A stretch of 64,000 bases of DNA from Clostridiales bacterium. GTDB lineage: Bacteria > Bacillota > Desulfotomaculia > Desulfotomaculales > VENG01. Positions 16,673-60,317 of the stretch are shown here, piece by piece; the stretch's first letter is position 1; each line of letters starts with the position of its first letter. The notes under the pieces were generated by a model. The model saw only the letters and a program-made list of their open reading frames with translations, made no database searches and was not told the DNA's origin. A program made the translations under genes and the position numbers. The stretch covers positions 4,002 to 68,001 of the forward strand of contig JADQBQ010000018.1 in NCBI GenBank assembly GCA_016278505.1. The letters are read 5' to 3'.

Positions 16673-16748
16673 TGGTGGGACCAACAGGACTTGAACCTGT
16701 GACATCCTGCTTGTAAGGCAGGCGCTCTCCCAACTGAGCTATGATCCC
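16673..16748 (-). tRNA. tRNA-Val (anticodon TAC), CCA encoded
   Basis: GGGATCATAGCTCAGTTGGGAGAGCGCCTGCCTTACAAGCAGGATGTCACAGGTTCAAGTCCTGTTGGTCCCACCA folds as a cloverleaf with a 7-bp acceptor stem. Confidence 0.9.
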
Positions 16749-16787
16749 ATTTCATAAACTCCAACCTCTCACTTCCCACGTCCCAAA

Positions 16788-16862
16788 TGGTGGGCCCACC
16801 AGGATTTGAACCTGGAACCAGCCGGTTATGAGCCGGATGCTCTGCCGTTGAGCTATGGGCCC
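16788..16862 (-). tRNA. tRNA with CAT anticodon (elongator tRNA-Met, or tRNA-Ile2 if lysidinylated), CCA encoded
   Basis: GGGCCCATAGCTCAACGGCAGAGCATCCGGCTCATAACCGGCTGGTTCCAGGTTCAAATCCTGGTGGGCCCACCA. The G1-C72 pair argues against an initiator. Confidence 0.85.
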
Positions 16863-16869
16863 AAAATAA

Positions 16870-16944
16870 TGGCTCCCCGAGTAGGATTCGAACCTACAAC
16901 CCTCCGGTTAACAGCCGGATGCTCTACCGTTGAGCTATCGAGGA
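16870..16944 (-). tRNA. tRNA-Asn (anticodon GTT), CCA encoded
   Basis: TCCTCGATAGCTCAACGGTAGAGCATCCGGCTGTTAACCGGAGGGTTGTAGGTTCGAATCCTACTCGGGGAGCCA. Confidence 0.9.
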
Positions 16945-34077: not shown

Positions 34078-34313
34078 CTCCCGCCCCAGGCACAAAGCCA
34101 GGGACGGGAGGTACTTTCCCGCGGTTCCACCCTGTTTGGCAGTAATATTACCGCCCCCTTAAGCAGTGCAAGTTTTACTCATCGCTTCATGAGGTGATTC
34201 GAAACGATTTTCCTCTTGCGGTTCAGGAACCCCTTTCAGCCGGTTTCACTCACCGGTTTCCACCATCCCGGCTCTCTGAAGAATTACATCCGCCTACTCT
34301 TTCCATCATCACC
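34078..34313 (-). promoter_or_regulatory. T-box leader of glyQS with putative GGA (Gly) specifier and terminator/antiterminator
   Basis: Minus strand: Stem I base GGTGAT/ATCACC with a GA (K-turn) motif, an AGAGAG bulge and a GGTGGAAA distal loop. Specifier-loop 3' side is AAGA-GGA-A (GGA = plus 34211-34213). T-box sequence AAACAGGGTGGAACCGCGGGAAAG. Terminator CCCGTCCCTGG...CCTGGGGCGGG. Confidence 0.8.
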
Positions 34314-34398
34314 AAAGTATTATTTGCGATTAATTTACCAAATTTACGTTGTAAAGTCAAATACCCTTTTACCTTAATCATCAGCTATCGTTGGTAAT

Positions 34399-46571: not shown

Positions 46572-46643
46572 AAAAAAATCCCCCCTTGCCAAAAATGTAT
46601 GCGGCAAGGGGAGGAAAGATTACTCAGCAATGGCTAATAATGG

Positions 46644-46988
46644 TTACTCTTTATTTTCTTGCATCTCTTTGATAGCTTGACCGATCATTTCAGCCGAAAG
46701 CCCGCCATGAAAGCGGGGTTGGCCGTCAATAACCGTTAAAGGAAGGCGTACCCTATCGAGAACAGATGAAACTTGAGGGTACTCCTTAATATCCGGTGTA
46801 GTTACATCTACAAACTTAAAATCCACTTCAGAGCCAAAACTGTTTTCTAGTTCTGTCTTTAACTCAGATGCTTCTTCTTTCATGGTCTTTTGCGAACCGC
46901 ATCCAGCGGCAGGAGAAGGGCCTCACCCGCCAGTCTGCACCGGTGCATCAAGACCGAAAACCATTACTTCAATTGGTTGTTCTGCCAT
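46644..46988 (-). CDS. Small thioredoxin-fold selenoprotein candidate (in-frame UGA at 46923-46925 read as Sec)
   Basis: ATG 46988 lies 5 nt after GAGAGGTGA. MAEQPIEVMVFGLDAPVQTGG-U-GPSPAAGCGSQKT then joins the ORF-track ORF 46644..46883 in frame (345 nt in total). A GCCGC-UGGAU-GCGGU hairpin lies about 12 nt downstream of the UGA. The TGGUG motif resembles the TGVCG motif of ArsD-type thioredoxin-fold proteins. Confidence 0.6.
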
Positions 46989-47076
46989 ACTATCACCTCT
47001 CAGTTAGCCTTTTTTACCAATGTATAACAGATTGTAACATAATTACGTATGTTATGATACCCCGGCAGTCAAGACT

Positions 47077-47109
47077 AATTTCACTAAAAATATATTTTTT
47101 AGTGAAATT
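47077..47109. promoter_or_regulatory. 33-bp perfect AT-rich palindrome in the divergent selenoprotein promoter region
   Basis: AATTTCACTAAAAATATATTTTTAGTGAAATT-type symmetry read directly from the sequence. Confidence 0.5.
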
Positions 47110-47121
47110 GAATGATTACCG

Positions 47122-47150
47122 GGGGGATAATAAAATTATTTTATTATCCC
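47122..47150. promoter_or_regulatory. Second perfect palindrome or hairpin in the same intergenic region
   Basis: GGGGATAATAAAA-TTA-TTTTATTATCCCC. Confidence 0.5.
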
Positions 47151-47195
47151 CATAAAGGAATCTCTCAATGCATAATTGAAAAATATAGAAAGAAG

Positions 47196-47243: not shown

Positions 47244-47265
47244 AAAATAATAAAGGATGATAAAC

Positions 47266-48309
47266 TTGAATAAACAAGAACACAGATTAACCCAAATGAC
47301 CAAAAGTTCAGGGTGAGCTGCCAAATTGGGGCCTGAGGCCCTGTCGCAGGTACTGCGGCAGCTACCGGTGCTTGATCACCCTAACTTATTGGTGGGATTG
47401 GAAACCTCAGATGACGCTGCAGTTTACAAACTGAACGGGAGCACTGCCATTATTAATACCGTTGATTTTTTTACCCCTATTGTGGACGACCCCTATCTAT
47501 TTGGCCAAATTGCAGCAACCAACGCGCTGAGCGATATCTATGCCATGGGCGGGCAACCGCTTCTTGCTTTGAACATTGCATGTTTTCCCAGCTGCCTGCC
47601 CAAGGAAATGCTGGCCCAAATATTACGCGGGGGCGCCGATAAAGTTATGGAGGCTGAGGCCATTATAGCCGGAGGTCATACCATAGAAGATGACGAACCT
47701 AAATACGGTTTAGCCGTTACCGGACTGGTGCACCCGGATAAAGTAACATCTAATTCCAATGCCCGAACAGACAACCTCTTAGTATTAACCAAACCCCTGG
47801 GCACCGGAATCATAAATACTGCCATCAAAGGCGGCCTGGCCAGTGATGAAGTGATAAGGCAGGCATCGCATAGCATGTGTGAATTAAATAAAGAGGCTGC
47901 CCGGATAATGAATAATACAGGTGCCCGGGCTTGTACTGATATAACCGGGTTTGGATTGATGGGACATGCTGCTGAAATGGCTGAGGCAAGTAATGTAAGT
48001 CTGGAAATCTGGTCGGAGGAAGTACCCCTATTACCCGGAACATTGGACATGGCCTCGATGGGGATGATCCCCGCAGGGGCTTACAATAACCAAACATATC
48101 TACAGGGAAAGACTAAATTTTCAGGACAAATAAAAGCTGAATTACAGTTAGCCTTTTTTGACCCACAAACCTCGGGAGGTCTGCTCATTTCCATACCGGA
48201 AGGCAAGGCTGACATCTTAATGCAGGGTATGAATGATGCCGGAATTGCCCACGCTGCAGTAATAGGCAAAGTAAAACAGCGAAAAAGTCATTTAATAGAG
48301 ATAGTGTAG
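47266..48309 (+). CDS. selD: Selenide, water dikinase (selenophosphate synthetase) with active-site selenocysteine (UGA 47314-47316)
   Basis: (M)NKQEHRLTQMTKSSG-U-AAKLGPEAL aligns with the E. coli SelD N-terminus [20 protein letters not shown] (Sec at the Cys17 position, Lys at +3). TTG 47266 lies 8 nt after AAAGGA (ATG 47257 is also in frame). The ORF track begins only at 47326, after the UGA. Confidence 0.85.
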
Positions 48310-48331: not shown

Positions 48332-48943
48332 ATGGTAAAGGAAATTGATTGCCGCGGACTTAACTGCCCGCAACCGGTAATCAATACCAAGAAGGCTTTG
48401 GATGAAATTTCCACAGGAAGAATAACAACCATTGTTGATAACCCTGTGGCTCATAAAAATGTATCCCTTTTTGCCCGAAATTCCGGACACCAGGTAGAAG
48501 ACAAAGAAGAAAACGGTGTTTTTTACATATCCATTACCAAAGGCAGTGGGGAAAATCCCCCATCCGAGCAAACCGAAACTGAACAAACCCTACCGGTGGC
48601 AGCACAAAAGCCCGTTTATTTAATATCTTCCAATTGTTTCGGACAGGGTTCGCCGGACCTTGGAACCGTGCTCATGAAAAGCTTAATGCTTACACTAGCA
48701 GAGAGCGACCCCGCTCCCGGGGCACTGATATTTTTAAACACCGGTGTCTACCTTGCTGCCGAAGGATCTGACGTTTTACCTTACCTGAGCAAGCTTTCCG
48801 AAAGGGGCACATCGATAATGGCCTGCGGTACCTGTCTTGACTATTACCAACTCAGGGAAAAATTAGCCGCCGGGCAGATATCCAACATGTATGAAATAAA
48901 CAGTAAGCTCACCGGCTCAAGTAAGGTAATAACGGTTTCTTGA
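48332..48943 (+). CDS. yedF: Selenium metabolism protein YedF (TusA/SirA-like domain plus DsrE-like domain)
   Basis: IDCRGLNCPQPVINTKKAL TusA-type CPxP motif. C-terminal DsrE-like half. Immediately downstream of selD. Confidence 0.75.
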   Translation: MVKEIDCRGLNCPQPVINTKKALDEISTGRITTIVDNPVAHKNVSLFARNSGHQVEDKEENGVFYISITKGSGENPPSEQTETEQTLPVAAQKPVYLISSNCFGQGSPDLGTVLMKSLMLTLAESDPAPGALIFLNTGVYLAAEGSDVLPYLSKLSERGTSIMACGTCLDYYQLREKLAAGQISNMYEINSKLTGSSKVITVS

Positions 48944-52046: not shown

Positions 52047-52547
52047 CTACGATTCTTTTATCCACCTTACAATTATTCTGCTGCCCTCCACATTGATTAC
52101 TTCCACCTTTGCATCCCTAGGTATAAATCCCCCCTCCGTGACCACATCCAGGCGCTCACCATCCACTTCAACCGTGCCGGACGGACGCAGTGGTGTAATT
52201 ACTGTGCCCCTACTGCCCACGTAACGGGCCAACCCGGGTTTGGGCGCTGTATATCCTGTTTCCTTGTACTGCCTCGAGCTTAAAGAAACCCGCTGCAACA
52301 AGTTTAATTTAGCAACCACCTTGATGCTGATAATAAATAAAACAATAGTGACTACCAGAGCTATTACAAGGGCTTGCGTGGCTTGAGTCACATCAACCAC
52401 AAGCAGTAAGACTCCCCAGCCCAGTAAAAGCAAACCTGATATGCCGGCCACGCCAAAACCGGGGACAATAAAGATTTCGAGTATTAATCCCAGTGCACCC
52501 AACAAAAAGCACAGTGCGGCAAGCCAGGGTATAAGTTCAGGAGACAT
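52047..52547 (-). CDS. NfeD family membrane protein
   Basis: Three N-terminal TM helices plus a C-terminal OB-fold (GTVITPLRPSGTVEVDGERLDVVTEG). Confidence 0.8.
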   Translation of the reverse strand: MSPELIPWLAALCFLLGALGLILEIFIVPGFGVAGISGLLLLGWGVLLLVVDVTQATQALVIALVVTIVLFIISIKVVAKLNLLQRVSLSSRQYKETGYTAPKPGLARYVGSRGTVITPLRPSGTVEVDGERLDVVTEGGFIPRDAKVEVINVEGSRIIVRWIKES

Positions 52548-60280: not shown

Positions 60281-60317
60281 TACACATCACCTCTTTGTAA
60301 CAAATACAATTTTTCTA

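What the first reader, a model, noticed from the sequence alone, without database searches (positions are those of the whole stretch)
46644..46988. Unannotated small selenoprotein: the ORF extends 35 codons upstream through an in-frame UGA
The ORF track starts this gene at 46883 with no RBS. Reading upstream in the same frame gives MAEQPIEVMVFGLDAPVQTGG-UGA-GPSPAAGCGSQKT from an ATG (46988) with a good RBS (GAGAGGTGA). The UGA (46923-46925) sits in a TGG-U-G context with a Cys 8 residues later. That is where thioredoxin-fold proteins of the ArsD/YuzD type carry their redox or metal-binding cysteines (TGVCG in ArsD, as I recall). A 5-bp hairpin with a UGGAU loop starts about 12 nt after the UGA, the spacing expected for a bacterial SECIS. 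The gene is divergent from a Sec-containing selD. I cannot tell whether this selenoprotein family has been described.
Basis: partly seen in the sequence, partly recalled or inferred. Interest (0 to 1): 0.65.

Follow-up and report, generated by a model that had tools for sequence, protein, structure and literature searches.

The report
Unannotated YuzD-like selenoprotein next to selD
A small gene annotated as a 79-residue hypothetical protein really starts 35 codons earlier and reads through a UGA as selenocysteine; it belongs to a thioredoxin-fold selenoprotein family that I could not find in any catalogue, and whose copies sit beside selenium-activation genes or inside arsenic-resistance operons.

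Summary

**The gene.** The minus-strand ORF 46988..46644 encodes a 114-residue protein. Sec is at codon 22 (TGA 46925-46923) and a partner Cys is at codon 30.

**Evidence across 49 related genomic loci.**
- 38 loci keep an in-frame TGA at this position, and 9 have Cys instead.
- The peptide upstream of the TGA is conserved and shows a protein-coding substitution pattern.
- A strong ribosome-binding site precedes the upstream ATG.
- One subfamily has no internal Met at all.

**SECIS.** A 5-bp hairpin lies 12 nt after the UGA. It pairs in 94.7% of cells in the Sec genes, with compensatory changes, and in only 35% in the Cys genes.

**Sec decoding.** The adjacent selD contains Sec, here and in all 10 orthologous loci where its 5' end could be read.

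**Fold and relatives.** The protein has a thioredoxin fold. It is distantly related to YuzD/DUF1462 (PDB 1xg8) and, more weakly, to the ArsD-related protein VcpD.

**Novelty.** No Pfam or NCBIfam model captures it. A 2026 catalogue of 119 prokaryotic selenoprotein families does not list it. Databases hold only truncated stubs, or versions with Trp at the TGA.

**Function (inferred, not shown).** The Sec-Cys loop probably binds or reduces a chalcogen or metalloid. The window's orthologue group is always paired with selD-yedF, and many paralogues are operonic with ACR3, ArsR, ArsP or ArsM genes.

This is a new member of a known kind.

The parts
46644..46988 (-). Full selenoprotein ORF: 114 codons plus a TAA stop (46646-46644). 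It reads M1...G21-U22-G23...C30...M36...E114.
   Evidence: sequence and translation. (conserved full-length family with U or C at codon 22).
46993..47001 (-). Shine-Dalgarno sequence GAGAGGTGA, 4 nt upstream of the ATG at 46988.
   Evidence: AGGAGG-type sites precede the equivalent upstream ATG in nearly all homologous loci. Nothing comparable precedes the internal ATG at 46883.
46923..46925 (-). Sec codon UGA (codon 22).
   Evidence: TGA sits at the aligned position in 38 of 49 loci, and Cys in 9. An independent strain keeps it. TGA is otherwise a normal stop in this genome, ending 6 of 40 long ORFs.
46896..46910 (-). Candidate bacterial SECIS apical hairpin: 5' stem GCCGC (46910-46906), loop UGGAU (46905-46901), 3' stem GCGGU (46900-46896). 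There are 17 nt from the UGA to the loop.
   Evidence: It pairs in 94.7% of cells across Sec genes, with compensatory GC/AU changes. It pairs in 35% of cells in Cys genes.
46899..46901 (-). Codon for Cys30 (UGC), the conserved partner of Sec22. Its third base pairs with the first base of the Ala28 codon in the hairpin.
   Evidence: C30 is at least 90% conserved. Ala(GCN) goes with UGC in 17 of 17 genes, and Thr(ACN) with UGU in 10 of 10.
46881..46883 (-). Internal Met36 codon, the start used by gene callers. I read it as an ordinary residue at the N-terminus of helix a1.
   Evidence: The Met is just as conserved in most Cys-form proteins, which need no re-initiation. It is absent in L044-L047. 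No SD precedes it.
47031..47041 (-). Candidate extended -10 promoter element, TATGTTACAAT, about 42 nt upstream of the ATG.
   Evidence: A TATGnTAnAAT element stands 30-60 nt upstream of the upstream ATG in most orthologous loci. This is inferred. The consensus scan did not list it, because no -35 hexamer lies at standard spacing.
46572..46611 (-). Terminator-like hairpin CCCCUUGCC(12-nt loop)GGCAAGGGG followed by a U-run, 33 nt after the stop codon.
   Evidence: Inverted repeat I4 and the sequence. The terminator scan missed it because the loop exceeds that tool's 8-nt limit.
47257..48309 (+). Divergent neighbour selD (selenophosphate synthetase), itself a selenoprotein with UGA at 47314-47316. 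It was mis-called as starting at 47326.
   Evidence: MINLNKQEHRLTQMTKSSG-U-AAKLGPE. TIGR00476 at 403 bits. Sec-SelD is also adjacent in all 10 orthologous loci whose 5' end is readable.
48332..48943 (+). yedF, a sulfurtransferase-like selenium-metabolism gene, downstream of selD.
   Evidence: TIGR03527 at 201.6 bits. It is conserved with selD in 9 orthologous loci.

Best explanation
SHOWN BY COMPARATIVE EVIDENCE. The gene at 46988..46644 (minus strand) encodes a 114-residue cytoplasmic selenoprotein. Translation starts at the ATG with a good ribosome-binding site. The UGA at codon 22 is decoded as selenocysteine. The annotated 79-residue ORF is only the C-terminal two thirds of the protein.

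INFERRED: HOW THE UGA IS DECODED. A short stem-loop begins 12 nt after the UGA and overlaps the codons for the conserved A-G-C-G motif. I take it to be the SECIS that recruits SelB carrying Sec-tRNA(Sec).

FOLD AND ACTIVE SITE. The protein has a thioredoxin fold and is a divergent relative of the YuzD/DUF1462 family. The CxxC dithiol that YuzD carries between strand b1 and helix a1 has been stretched here into a flexible Gly/Pro-rich loop. That loop holds Sec22 and Cys30. Ars-operon paralogues carry C-U...C-C or U-x-C...C in the same loop.

INFERRED: FUNCTION. The Sec-Cys pair either cycles through a selenenylsulfide or chelates a soft chalcogen or metalloid, in the way ArsD's loop cysteines hold As(III). 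The orthologue group that includes this window is always divergently paired with selD-yedF. So its most likely role is handling or reducing selenium on the way to selenophosphate synthetase. Paralogues operonic with ACR3, ArsR, ArsP or ArsM most likely do the equivalent job for arsenite.

CONFIDENCE. The figure given applies to the core claim: a genuine Sec-encoding gene of a YuzD-like thioredoxin-fold family. I put the specific selenium-handling role at about 0.3.
For: (1) Conserved UGA with Cys homologues. TGA is at the same aligned position in the window and in 38 of 49 loci. Cys is there in 9. The column is invariant U/C in the alignment.

(2) Repeated Sec/Cys switches. A neighbour-joining tree needs at least 3. 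L036 (Cys) is 85% identical to L032 (Sec).

(3) The upstream segment is coding. Differences per site at codon positions 1/2/3 are 0.155/0.031/0.514 upstream of the TGA. Between the TGA and Met36 they are 0.162/0.108/0.449. In the undisputed domain they are 0.226/0.071/0.534. An independent strain differs at 7 sites, all on third codon positions, including 2 upstream of the TGA; by my reading of the codons those two are synonymous.

(4) Start signals. AGGAGG-type sites precede the upstream ATG in nearly all loci.

(5) L044-L047 have no internal Met, so read-through is the only route to the domain.

(6) Database proteins are bimodal in length. Some are 104-128 aa with Cys, or with W where a TGA was called under code 4; this was verified at the DNA level in L050. 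The rest are 75-87 aa stubs.

(7) Hairpin. In the Sec genes 94.7% of cells are paired, against 83% in shuffles (0 of 500 reach it) and 30-59% in slid registers. Two pairs show compensatory change, GC in 20 and AU in 9 at one of them. RNAalifold recovers the core independently. The same register pairs in only 35% of cells in the Cys genes. The Cys codon is UGC with Ala in 17 of 17 genes and UGU with Thr in 10 of 10.

(8) Sec decoding. Sec-SelD is adjacent here and in 10 of 10 readable orthologous loci. TGA is a normal stop in the window.

(9) Fold and relatives. AF2 gives pLDDT 77.5 and a thioredoxin topology. Foldseek returns thioredoxins, with the best TM-score of 0.62 at 24% identity to 1xg8. 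The wider family profile hits 1xg8 at E 2.1e-8. DUF1462 is hit by 6 of 31 core and 18 of 62 distant members, and VcpD by 13 of 31.

(10) Context. The order yedF, selD, X, yqfC, yqfD, phoH is seen in the window and 12 loci. X lies 13-14 nt downstream of ACR3 in L014, L017 and L027. It lies 27-60 nt downstream of ArsR or ArsP in L026, L032, L033 and L035.
Against: - There is no direct evidence of expression or of selenium incorporation. Only DNA metagenomes hold this sequence.
- selA, selB and tRNA-Sec are not in the window or in any fetched locus.
- The published generic bSECIS criteria are met, but they hardly discriminate here. 67% of synonymous-codon shuffles and 5 of 9 Cys genes also pass. 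Four Sec loci (L005, L014, L017, L027) fail.
- A plain MFE shuffle test is only weakly positive, with mean z of -0.86 for Sec genes against -0.47 for Cys genes.
- The covariation rests on a few clades, so the number of independent events is small.
- The Sec/Cys loop is modelled with low confidence (pLDDT below 50 for residues 18-29).
- The link with selD could be inherited synteny within one clade of Desulfotomaculia. It need not be functional. The window's intergenic palindromes are not conserved.
- No member reaches a curated cut-off of any named family.
Confidence: 0.87

Rival explanations
1. The TGA is a true stop. The real product is the annotated 79-residue protein from Met36, and the upstream 21 codons form a separate leader peptide or are non-coding.
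For: All gene callers using the standard code start at Met36. That Met is conserved in most members. No expression data exist.
Against: - No SD precedes Met36, while a strong SD precedes the upstream ATG.
- L044-L047 lack the Met.
- Cys-form homologues are continuous proteins, and most carry the same Met.
- Coding-type substitution patterns run on both sides of the TGA in one frame.
- The 79-residue product would lack strand b1 and the whole active-site loop of the thioredoxin fold.
Confidence: 0.04
2. Two products are made. Sec insertion gives the full protein when selenium is available. When it is scarce, termination at the UGA followed by re-initiation at Met36 gives a truncated domain.
For: The Met lies 13 codons after the UGA and is conserved in most Sec forms. 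UGA decoding by SelB always competes with release factor 2 (general knowledge).
Against: The Met is just as conserved in Cys forms and is absent in one Sec subfamily. No SD is present for re-initiation. The truncated product would lack the catalytic loop and a core strand.
Confidence: 0.05
3. The UGA is read through as Trp, Cys or Gly, either by an alternative genetic code or by near-cognate suppression, and not as Sec.
For: Several database entries translate it as W.
Against: - Those W entries are TGA called under code 4.
- TGA ends 6 of 40 long ORFs in the window, so the standard code applies.
- Homologues carry Cys, never a genuine TGG, at that site.
- A hairpin specific to the TGA forms follows it.
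- Sec-SelD is adjacent.
Confidence: 0.02
4. The gene is a pseudogene, or the TGA is an assembly or sequencing error.
For: A single in-frame stop could be a lesion. L048 and L049 do look degraded.
Against: The same stop sits at the same codon in 38 loci from many genera, under purifying selection. An independent metagenome keeps it.
Confidence: 0.01

Closest known systems
YuzD / DUF1462 family (Pfam PF07315; structure 1xg8, S. aureus SA0798)
   Same: It is a single-domain thioredoxin-fold protein of about 110 residues, with a Cys pair between b1 and a1. It gives the best structural match (TM 0.62, 24% identity). The wider family profile hits 1xg8 at E 2.1e-8, aligning the family's Cys pair on its C-A-S-C motif. 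DUF1462 is the commonest Pfam hit among distant members, 18 of 62. One JGI record already calls a Cys-form member 'disulfide oxidoreductase YuzD'.
   Different: The window protein and most core members give no Pfam hit at all. The compact CxxC is replaced by a Gly/Pro-rich loop with U/C-x7-8-C(C). The first position is Sec in most members. The gene contexts (selD-yedF, ars operons) are not ones I know for YuzD. YuzD's own function is uncharacterised in the literature I could search.
ArsD arsenic metallochaperone (Pfam PF06953) and the ArsD-related vicinal-cysteine protein VcpD (NCBIfam NF047871)
   Same: These are thioredoxin-fold proteins without a canonical CxxC. They hold soft-metalloid ligands, some of them vicinal Cys pairs, in a flexible loop after b1. 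As I recall, ArsD has C12-C13...C18 in CCSTGVCG. Many paralogues of the present family are operonic with arsenic-resistance genes. 13 of 31 members give sub-threshold hits to VcpD, best E 8.8e-6.
   Different: No member hits Pfam ArsD. VcpD's 90-bit cut-off is never approached (12.6 bits for the window protein, 17.2 for P0032). No ArsA ATPase, which is ArsD's client, is found in any locus. The neighbours are ACR3, ArsP or ArsM instead. The window's own subfamily has only two ligands (U22, C30), one short of the three that bind As(III) in ArsD.
Catalogued thioredoxin-fold bacterial selenoproteins (for example Thioredoxin_3-type Sec.1/Sec.2, SaoT, HUIPC-motif Trx-like, VPGUxxT family; Table 1 of PMC13188914)
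   Same: The evolutionary pattern is the same. Sec replaces the N-terminal redox Cys of a thioredoxin-fold protein, Cys-form homologues exist, a SECIS lies in the coding region just after the UGA, and databases truncate the protein.
   Different: None of their models matches. The best hits are Thioredoxin_3 at E 0.024 or worse, SaoT at 0.16 and TsoX at 0.088. The Sec-to-Cys spacing of 7-8 residues is unlike their UxxC, CxxU, CxU or UxC motifs. The family is absent from that 119-entry table.
Bacterial SECIS elements (E. coli fdhF type, and the selD SECIS of this same genome)
   Same: It is a stem-loop inside the ORF with 17 nt from the UGA to a 5-nt apical loop that has G at loop position 2 followed by G. 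It fits the published consensus. The L006-L008 versions (CCGCA-GGU-UGCGG) share a GCAGGU apex with the neighbouring selD SECIS (UCGCAGGUNCUGCGA).
   Different: The upper stem is very short (5 bp, one of them G-U) and the lower stem is not clearly conserved. The register differs in three subfamilies (L019/L021/L028; L044-L047; the A-C-C-G class closes to a UGU triloop). Binding to SelB is untested.

Membership tests
Bacterial selenoprotein gene (general definition) | An in-frame UGA conserved at the same codon in orthologues. | tested here: met
   TGA is at the aligned position in the window and 38 of 49 loci. It is also present in L050 and in an independent strain.
Bacterial selenoprotein gene (general definition) | Homologues with Cys aligned to the UGA. 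| tested here: met
   L024 and L036-L043, plus database proteins P0028, P0029, P0031, P0032 and others. The column is invariant U/C. There were at least 3 Sec/Cys switches.
Bacterial selenoprotein gene (general definition) | Protein-level conservation on both sides of the UGA in one frame. | tested here: met
   The motifs V-x-V-F-G-x-[ND]-A-P upstream and G-P...[AT]-G-C-G downstream are conserved. Codon-position differences are 0.155/0.031/0.514 upstream and 0.162/0.108/0.449 just downstream.
Bacterial selenoprotein gene (general definition) | A bSECIS stem-loop just downstream of the UGA: loop of 3-9 nt, stem of at least 4 bp, G in the first two loop positions, 16-37 nt from UGA to loop, MFE of -7.5 kcal/mol or lower (PMC13188914, Fig. 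2 legend). | tested here: met
   The window hairpin has loop UGGAU, a 5-bp stem, 17 nt spacing and -7.5 to -8.0 kcal/mol. 35 of 39 Sec genes pass, but so do 67% of synonymous shuffles, so passing the model means little here. The discriminating evidence is covariation and specificity to the TGA forms.
Bacterial selenoprotein gene (general definition) | The host genome has the Sec machinery (selA, selB, selC, selD). | tested here: inconclusive
   selD is present and itself contains Sec, here and in 10 of 10 readable orthologous loci. That implies a working Sec system. selA, selB and tRNA-Sec are not in the 64-kb window or the fetched loci, and whole genomes could not be scanned.
Bacterial selenoprotein gene (general definition) | Selenium demonstrated in the protein (75Se labelling or mass spectrometry). 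| not testable with these tools
   This needs an experiment. There are not even RNA data for this organism.
YuzD / DUF1462 (Pfam PF07315) | A significant match to the Pfam model. | tested here: not met
   The window protein has no hit at E up to 10. 6 of 31 core members hit only weakly, best E 8.4e-5. 18 of 62 distant relatives hit, best E 2.8e-7. It is a distant relative, not a member by the model.
YuzD / DUF1462 (Pfam PF07315) | Thioredoxin fold of about 110 aa with a Cys pair at the b1-a1 junction, as in 1xg8. | tested here: met
   AF2 topology. TM 0.62 to 1xg8. Profile hit to 1xg8 at E 2.1e-8, with the Cys pair aligned to C-A-S-C.
ArsD (Pfam PF06953) | A significant match to the ArsD model. 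| tested here: not met
   ArsD is not among the Pfam hits of any of 31 members at E up to 1, nor of 62 distant members at E up to 0.01.
ArsD (Pfam PF06953) | Genomic partnership with the ArsA ATPase, to which ArsD hands As(III). | tested here: not met
   No ORF in any locus carries the GKGG[VI]GK[TS] P-loop typical of ArsA/ParA-type ATPases. The partners are ACR3, ArsP, ArsM and ArsR.
ArsD (Pfam PF06953) | Three loop thiolates that bind As(III). | tested here: inconclusive
   Ars-operon paralogues carry 3-4 Sec/Cys in the loop (C-U...C-C, or U-x-C...C). The window's subfamily has only U22 and C30. Binding is untested.
VcpD, ArsD-related vicinal cysteine protein (NCBIfam NF047871) | A score at or above the curated cut-off of 90 bits. 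| tested here: not met
   The window protein scores 12.6 bits. 13 of 31 members hit, best E 8.8e-6. P0032 scores 17.2 bits.
Thioredoxin_3-type selenoproteins Sec.1/Sec.2 (PF13192) | A match to PF13192 with a CxU or UxC motif. | tested here: not met
   Only weak hits, 9 of 31 members at E 0.024 or worse. The motif here is U-x7-C. A genuine Thioredoxin_3 gene is a separate neighbour in L014 and L027.

The most novel reading that the evidence does not exclude
The selD-linked subfamily, which includes this window's gene, is a dedicated selenium chaperone. It captures or reduces selenium on its Sec22-Cys30 loop as a Se-Se-S type adduct. It then hands the selenium to selenophosphate synthetase, working with YedF. 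This would be the selenium counterpart of ArsD handing arsenite to its client. Its ars-operon paralogues would be selenocysteine-based arsenite chaperones that feed ACR3, ArsP or ArsM. The family would then be a Sec-using metalloid-trafficking system with paralogues specialised for As or for Se.
Probability: 0.2. Interest if true: 0.8.

Novelty: new member of a known kind. Interest (0 to 1): 0.6.

Why it matters
**Annotation.** Every public record I saw is wrong in one of two ways. Either it is a 75-87-residue 'hypothetical protein' that lacks the active site, or it carries Trp at the Sec position. The searches returned 192 database proteins and 304 clusters of representatives, and there is no family model. 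A model built from the alignment made here would correct those records.

**Biology.** The family adds a thioredoxin-fold selenoprotein with an unusual long U-x7-C loop. Its contexts are informative:
- One orthologue group is always divergent from selD-yedF.
- Other copies lie 13-60 nt from ACR3, ArsR or ArsP genes.

The 2026 review states that the in vivo selenium donor for SelD is still unresolved. A Sec-containing, ArsD-like protein encoded beside selD is a concrete and testable candidate for that role.

**Environment.** The family also bears on selenium-arsenic interplay in subsurface sulfate-reducing Firmicutes. This sequence is found in mine-drainage and groundwater metagenomes.

Tried and rejected
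- **Family scans of the window protein.** Pfam and NCBIfam gave no usable hit.
- **Structure prediction of the read-through protein.** I modelled the Cys-form homologue P0032 instead.
- **Plain MFE against synonymous shuffles.** The result was weak (mean z -0.86 for Sec, -0.47 for Cys), because the peptide itself favours hairpins. I did not use it as evidence.
- **Generic bSECIS criteria.** A strict hairpin-only version passed only 9 of 39 Sec genes (against about 5% of shuffles and 0 of 9 Cys genes). The proper version passed 35 of 39, but also 67% of shuffles. I rejected it as a discriminating test.
- **Intergenic palindromes.** The two perfect 14-nt palindromes between gene X and selD looked like a shared operator. 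They are not conserved in the orthologues, so I dropped the idea.
- **RNA-seq evidence.** No RNA runs exist. Runs X1, X3 and X8 laid no contigs on the stretch, although they share its words.
- **Sec machinery.** I searched for SelB-like P-loops and tRNA-Sec in the window and loci and found none.
- **ArsA.** Not found in any locus.
- **Literature.** Searches for YuzD, ArsD or VcpD together with selenoprotein found nothing relevant.
Full report
**1. The observation**

On the minus strand the frame reads MAEQPIEVMVFGLDAPVQTGG, then TGA, then GPSPAAGCGSQKT, then MKEEA...KE, then stop.

- The ATG at 46988 is the only start codon after the upstream in-frame stop. GAGAGGTGA (47001-46993) precedes it.
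- The annotated start, Met36 at 46883, follows GGTTCGCAAAAGACC, which has no Shine-Dalgarno sequence.
- The TGA is at 46925-46923.
- A Cys codon lies 8 codons later, at 46901-46899.
- The hairpin GCCGC-UGGAU-GCGGU occupies 46910-46896 and starts 12 nt after the UGA.
- The divergent neighbour is selD, with its own in-frame UGA (MINLNKQEHRLTQMTKSSG-U-AAKLGPE; TIGR00476 at 403 bits). yedF follows it (TIGR03527 at 201.6 bits).

**2. Is the UGA a conserved coding position?**

A protein search with the read-through form returned 27 homologues. All are 75-81 residues and cover only the C-terminal 65-69% of the query. Gene callers truncate them all at the same place.

I fetched 49 genomic loci from Desulfotomaculia and allied Firmicutes: Desulfallas, Desulfotruncus, Desulfoscipio, Pelotomaculum, Sporotomaculum, Syntrophaceticus, Thermacetogenium and many MAGs. 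I translated upstream of each match in frame.

- 38 loci have TGA at the aligned position, preceded by a conserved V-x-V-F-G-x-[ND]-A-P segment.
- 9 loci (L024, L036-L043) have Cys there.
- 2 loci (L048, L049) are degraded.

In the full-length alignment the U/C column is invariant, and the second Cys is at least 90% conserved.

AGGAGG-type ribosome-binding sites precede the upstream ATG in nearly every locus. In L044-L047 the internal Met does not exist (...GCGSGKSAREEF...). There, read-through is the only way to make the domain.

A second search, with the family profile, found 192 proteins with a bimodal length distribution.
- The proteins of 104-128 residues either carry Cys at the position (P0028, P0029, P0031, P0032...) or carry Trp.
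- The Trp entries are TGA translated under genetic code 4. I verified this on the DNA of L050.

**3. Is the upstream segment really translated?**

Among the selD-linked orthologues, pairwise differences per site at codon positions 1/2/3 are:

| Segment | pos 1 | pos 2 | pos 3 |
|---|---|---|---|
| Upstream of the TGA | 0.155 | 0.031 | 0.514 |
| Between the TGA and Met36 | 0.162 | 0.108 | 0.449 |
| Undisputed downstream domain | 0.226 | 0.071 | 0.534 |

All three segments show the same purifying-selection signature in one frame.

An independent, slightly diverged strain from a subsurface metagenome keeps the TGA. It differs at 7 positions, all on third codon positions. Two of them lie upstream of the TGA, and from the codons I read them as synonymous (GGC to GGT, ACT to ACC).

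TGA ends 6 of the 40 long ORFs in the window, so the organism uses the standard code.

A neighbour-joining tree needs at least three Sec/Cys switches. The Cys form L036 is 85% identical to the Sec form L032.

**4. The SECIS**

A stem-loop recurs at a fixed place, centred on the codons of the conserved [A/T]-G-C-G motif.

*Pair counts in the Sec genes.* I built an ungapped alignment of 32 Sec genes that share one register.
- 94.7% of cells pair, against 83% in column shuffles (0 of 500 reach it) and 30-59% in slid registers.
- Two of the five pairs change on both sides.
- RNAalifold recovers the core independently.

*Codon choice.* Every A-G-C-G gene uses Cys-UGC (17 of 17). Every T-G-C-G gene uses Cys-UGU (10 of 10). 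This keeps a G-C or an A-U pair between the first base of the Ala or Thr codon and the third base of the Cys codon. The synonymous third position on the 5' arm is C in all 30 distinct rows, while the loop third positions vary.

*Negative control.* The same register pairs in only 35% of cells in the Cys-form genes, no better than their controls.

*Other registers.* Three subfamilies use a shifted register, but each still has a hairpin at the same location.

*Published criteria.* The window hairpin meets the published bSECIS criteria: a 5-nt loop with G at position 2, a 5-bp stem, 17 nt from UGA to loop, and -7.5 to -8.0 kcal/mol.

*Caveat.* These criteria are nearly uninformative in this G/C-rich coding stretch.
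- 35 of 39 Sec genes pass, but so do 67% of synonymous shuffles and 5 of 9 Cys genes.
- The plain MFE z-score is weak.

So the case for a SECIS rests on position, covariation and specificity to the TGA forms. It does not rest on the consensus model.

*Shared apex with selD.* The selD SECIS of these genomes (UCGCAGGUNCUGCGA) shares a GCAGGU apex with the L006-L008 versions of the hairpin.

**5. Sec-decoding capacity**

selA, selB and tRNA-Sec are not in the 64-kb window or in any fetched locus. However, selD is itself a selenoprotein here and in all 10 orthologous loci where its 5' end is available. That requires a working Sec system.

**6. What the protein is**

*Family models.* No Pfam or NCBIfam model captures the window protein.

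*Structure.* An AlphaFold2 model of the Cys-form homologue P0032 has pLDDT 77.5. It shows a b-a-b-a-b-b-a thioredoxin topology. The Sec/Cys-rich segment is a long, low-confidence loop between b1 and a1. Foldseek returns thioredoxins. The highest TM-score is 0.62, at 24% identity, for 1xg8 (S. aureus SA0798).

*Extent of the family.* An exhaustive profile search shows that the family extends to 304 representative clusters.

*Link to YuzD.*
- The profile of the distant members hits 1xg8 at E 2.1e-8. It aligns the family's Cys pair on that protein's C-A-S-C motif.
- 18 of 62 distant members, and 6 of 31 core members, give sub-threshold hits to Pfam DUF1462, the YuzD family.

*Link to ArsD.*
- 13 of 31 core members give sub-threshold hits to NCBIfam NF047871, the 'ArsD-related vicinal cysteine protein VcpD'.
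- None hits Pfam ArsD.

The family is therefore a divergent branch of the YuzD-like thioredoxin-fold proteins. In it, the CxxC has been stretched into a U/C-x7-8-C(C) loop.

**7. Gene context**

*The selD-linked group.* The window and 12 loci share the order yedF, selD (both divergent from X), X, yqfC, yqfD, phoH.

*Paralogues in ars-type operons.* These often occur in the same genomes as the selD-linked copy.
- X lies 13-14 nt downstream of an ACR3-type gene in L014, L017 and L027, and ACR3's start overlaps the end of X in L012.
- X lies 27-60 nt downstream of ArsR or ArsP genes in L026, L032, L033 and L035.
- An ArsM-like methyltransferase, PadR, a Thioredoxin_3 protein, and a GcvH-like/DGC/OsmC/pyridine-nucleotide-disulfide-oxidoreductase cassette lie nearby.
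- No ArsA is present.

*Loop composition.* The ars-linked copies carry three or four Sec/Cys in the loop (C-U...C-C, or U-x-C...C). The selD-linked copies carry two (U22, C30).

**8. Mechanism**

*Supported by comparative evidence:* a 114-residue protein with Sec at codon 22, a hairpin specific to the TGA forms, and a thioredoxin fold related to YuzD.

*Inferred:* the Sec22-Cys30 pair forms a selenenylsulfide or chelates a soft chalcogen or metalloid. The selD-linked orthologue would handle selenium on the way to SelD, possibly with YedF. The ars-linked paralogues would handle arsenite.

*Why this is only a hypothesis:* the selD link could be inherited synteny within one clade, and the window's intergenic palindromes are not conserved.

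**9. Novelty**

The 2026 review of the prokaryotic selenoproteome lists 119 families or subfamilies. It never mentions ArsD, YuzD or DUF1462, and none of its entries fits this family. Most of those families are defined by NCBIfam or Pfam models, and none of those models matches. Literature searches found no description. All NCBI and UniProt names seen are 'hypothetical protein' on truncated products.

New bacterial selenoprotein families of exactly this type are found regularly: thioredoxin fold, Cys homologues, and a SECIS inside the ORF. So I rate this as a new member of a known kind. The context beside selD and inside ars operons is what raises its interest. The review itself notes that the in vivo selenium donor for SelD is unresolved.

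**10. Verdict**

- Confidence that this is a genuine selenoprotein gene of a YuzD-like family: about 0.87.
- Confidence in a selenium-handling role: about 0.3.
- Interest: 0.6.

Noticed in passing
window 47257-48309 (+), UGA at 47314-47316: selD is itself mis-called. The ORF list starts it at 47326, but it extends 23 codons upstream through a Sec codon. Two hairpins follow the UGA (GGGGCC-UGA-GGCCCU and CGCAG-GUA-CUGCG). The second is conserved in the orthologous loci.
   Followed up: partly
window 47077-47109 and 47123-47151: Two perfect 14-nt inverted repeats (AATTTCACTAAAAA/TTTTTAGTGAAATT and GGGGATAATAAAAT/ATTTTATTATCCCC) lie in the 268-bp spacer between the start codons of gene X and selD. 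They are not conserved in the orthologous loci, and their role is unknown.
   Followed up: partly
window 46572-46611 (-): A terminator-like hairpin (9-bp stem, 12-nt loop, U-run) sits between gene X and yqfC, and its U-run reaches the likely yqfC start codon. The terminator scan missed it because of that tool's loop-length limit.
   Followed up: no
Database proteins P0030, P0037, P0043, P0044, P0046, P0048, P0049, P0060; locus L050:381-731: Public protein sets hold full-length versions of this family with Trp at the Sec position. Metagenome gene callers translated the TGA under genetic code 4. I confirmed this on the DNA for P0030/L050.
   Followed up: yes
L017, L021, L028, L033, L038 (downstream of gene X): A recurrent cassette accompanies ars-linked paralogues: a GcvH-like protein, a DGC-domain protein, an OsmC-like protein and a pyridine-nucleotide-disulfide oxidoreductase. 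It may be a dithiol-based redox module for metalloid handling.
   Followed up: partly
L014, L027, L030, L035, L049 (cluster c14, e.g. L027:182-469): A conserved protein of about 95 residues with no Pfam hit recurs in the ars-type neighbourhoods.
   Followed up: no
L005, L009, L010, L011 (upstream of yedF): A CitMHS/ArsB-superfamily permease sits next to yedF-selD in four orthologous loci but not in the window. It is a candidate transporter linked to the selenium genes.
   Followed up: no
L044-L047: A distinct Sec subfamily (G-G-U-G-P...A-G-C-G, with no internal Met) lies between pcrA/ligA-like genes and gatCAB-like genes, named by my reading of the ORF sequences. This is a housekeeping context with no selenium or arsenic genes nearby.
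   Followed up: partly
L048 and L049: Two copies look degraded. L048 has a disrupted frame upstream of the domain, and L049 keeps only the C-terminal 43 residues next to ArsM, PadR, ArsR and ACR3 genes.
   Followed up: no
window 34097-34318 (-) and 16673-16944 (-): A T-box leader (97.6 bits) and a tRNA-Val/Met/Asn cluster. Both are ordinary features unrelated to the finding.
   Followed up: no
window, minus strand near 60289 and 62982; plus strand near 52384 and 60844: A mechanical scan lists a few other ORFs that could extend upstream through a TGA. Apart from selD, none has an obvious Sec-like context. They are probably chance.
   Followed up: no
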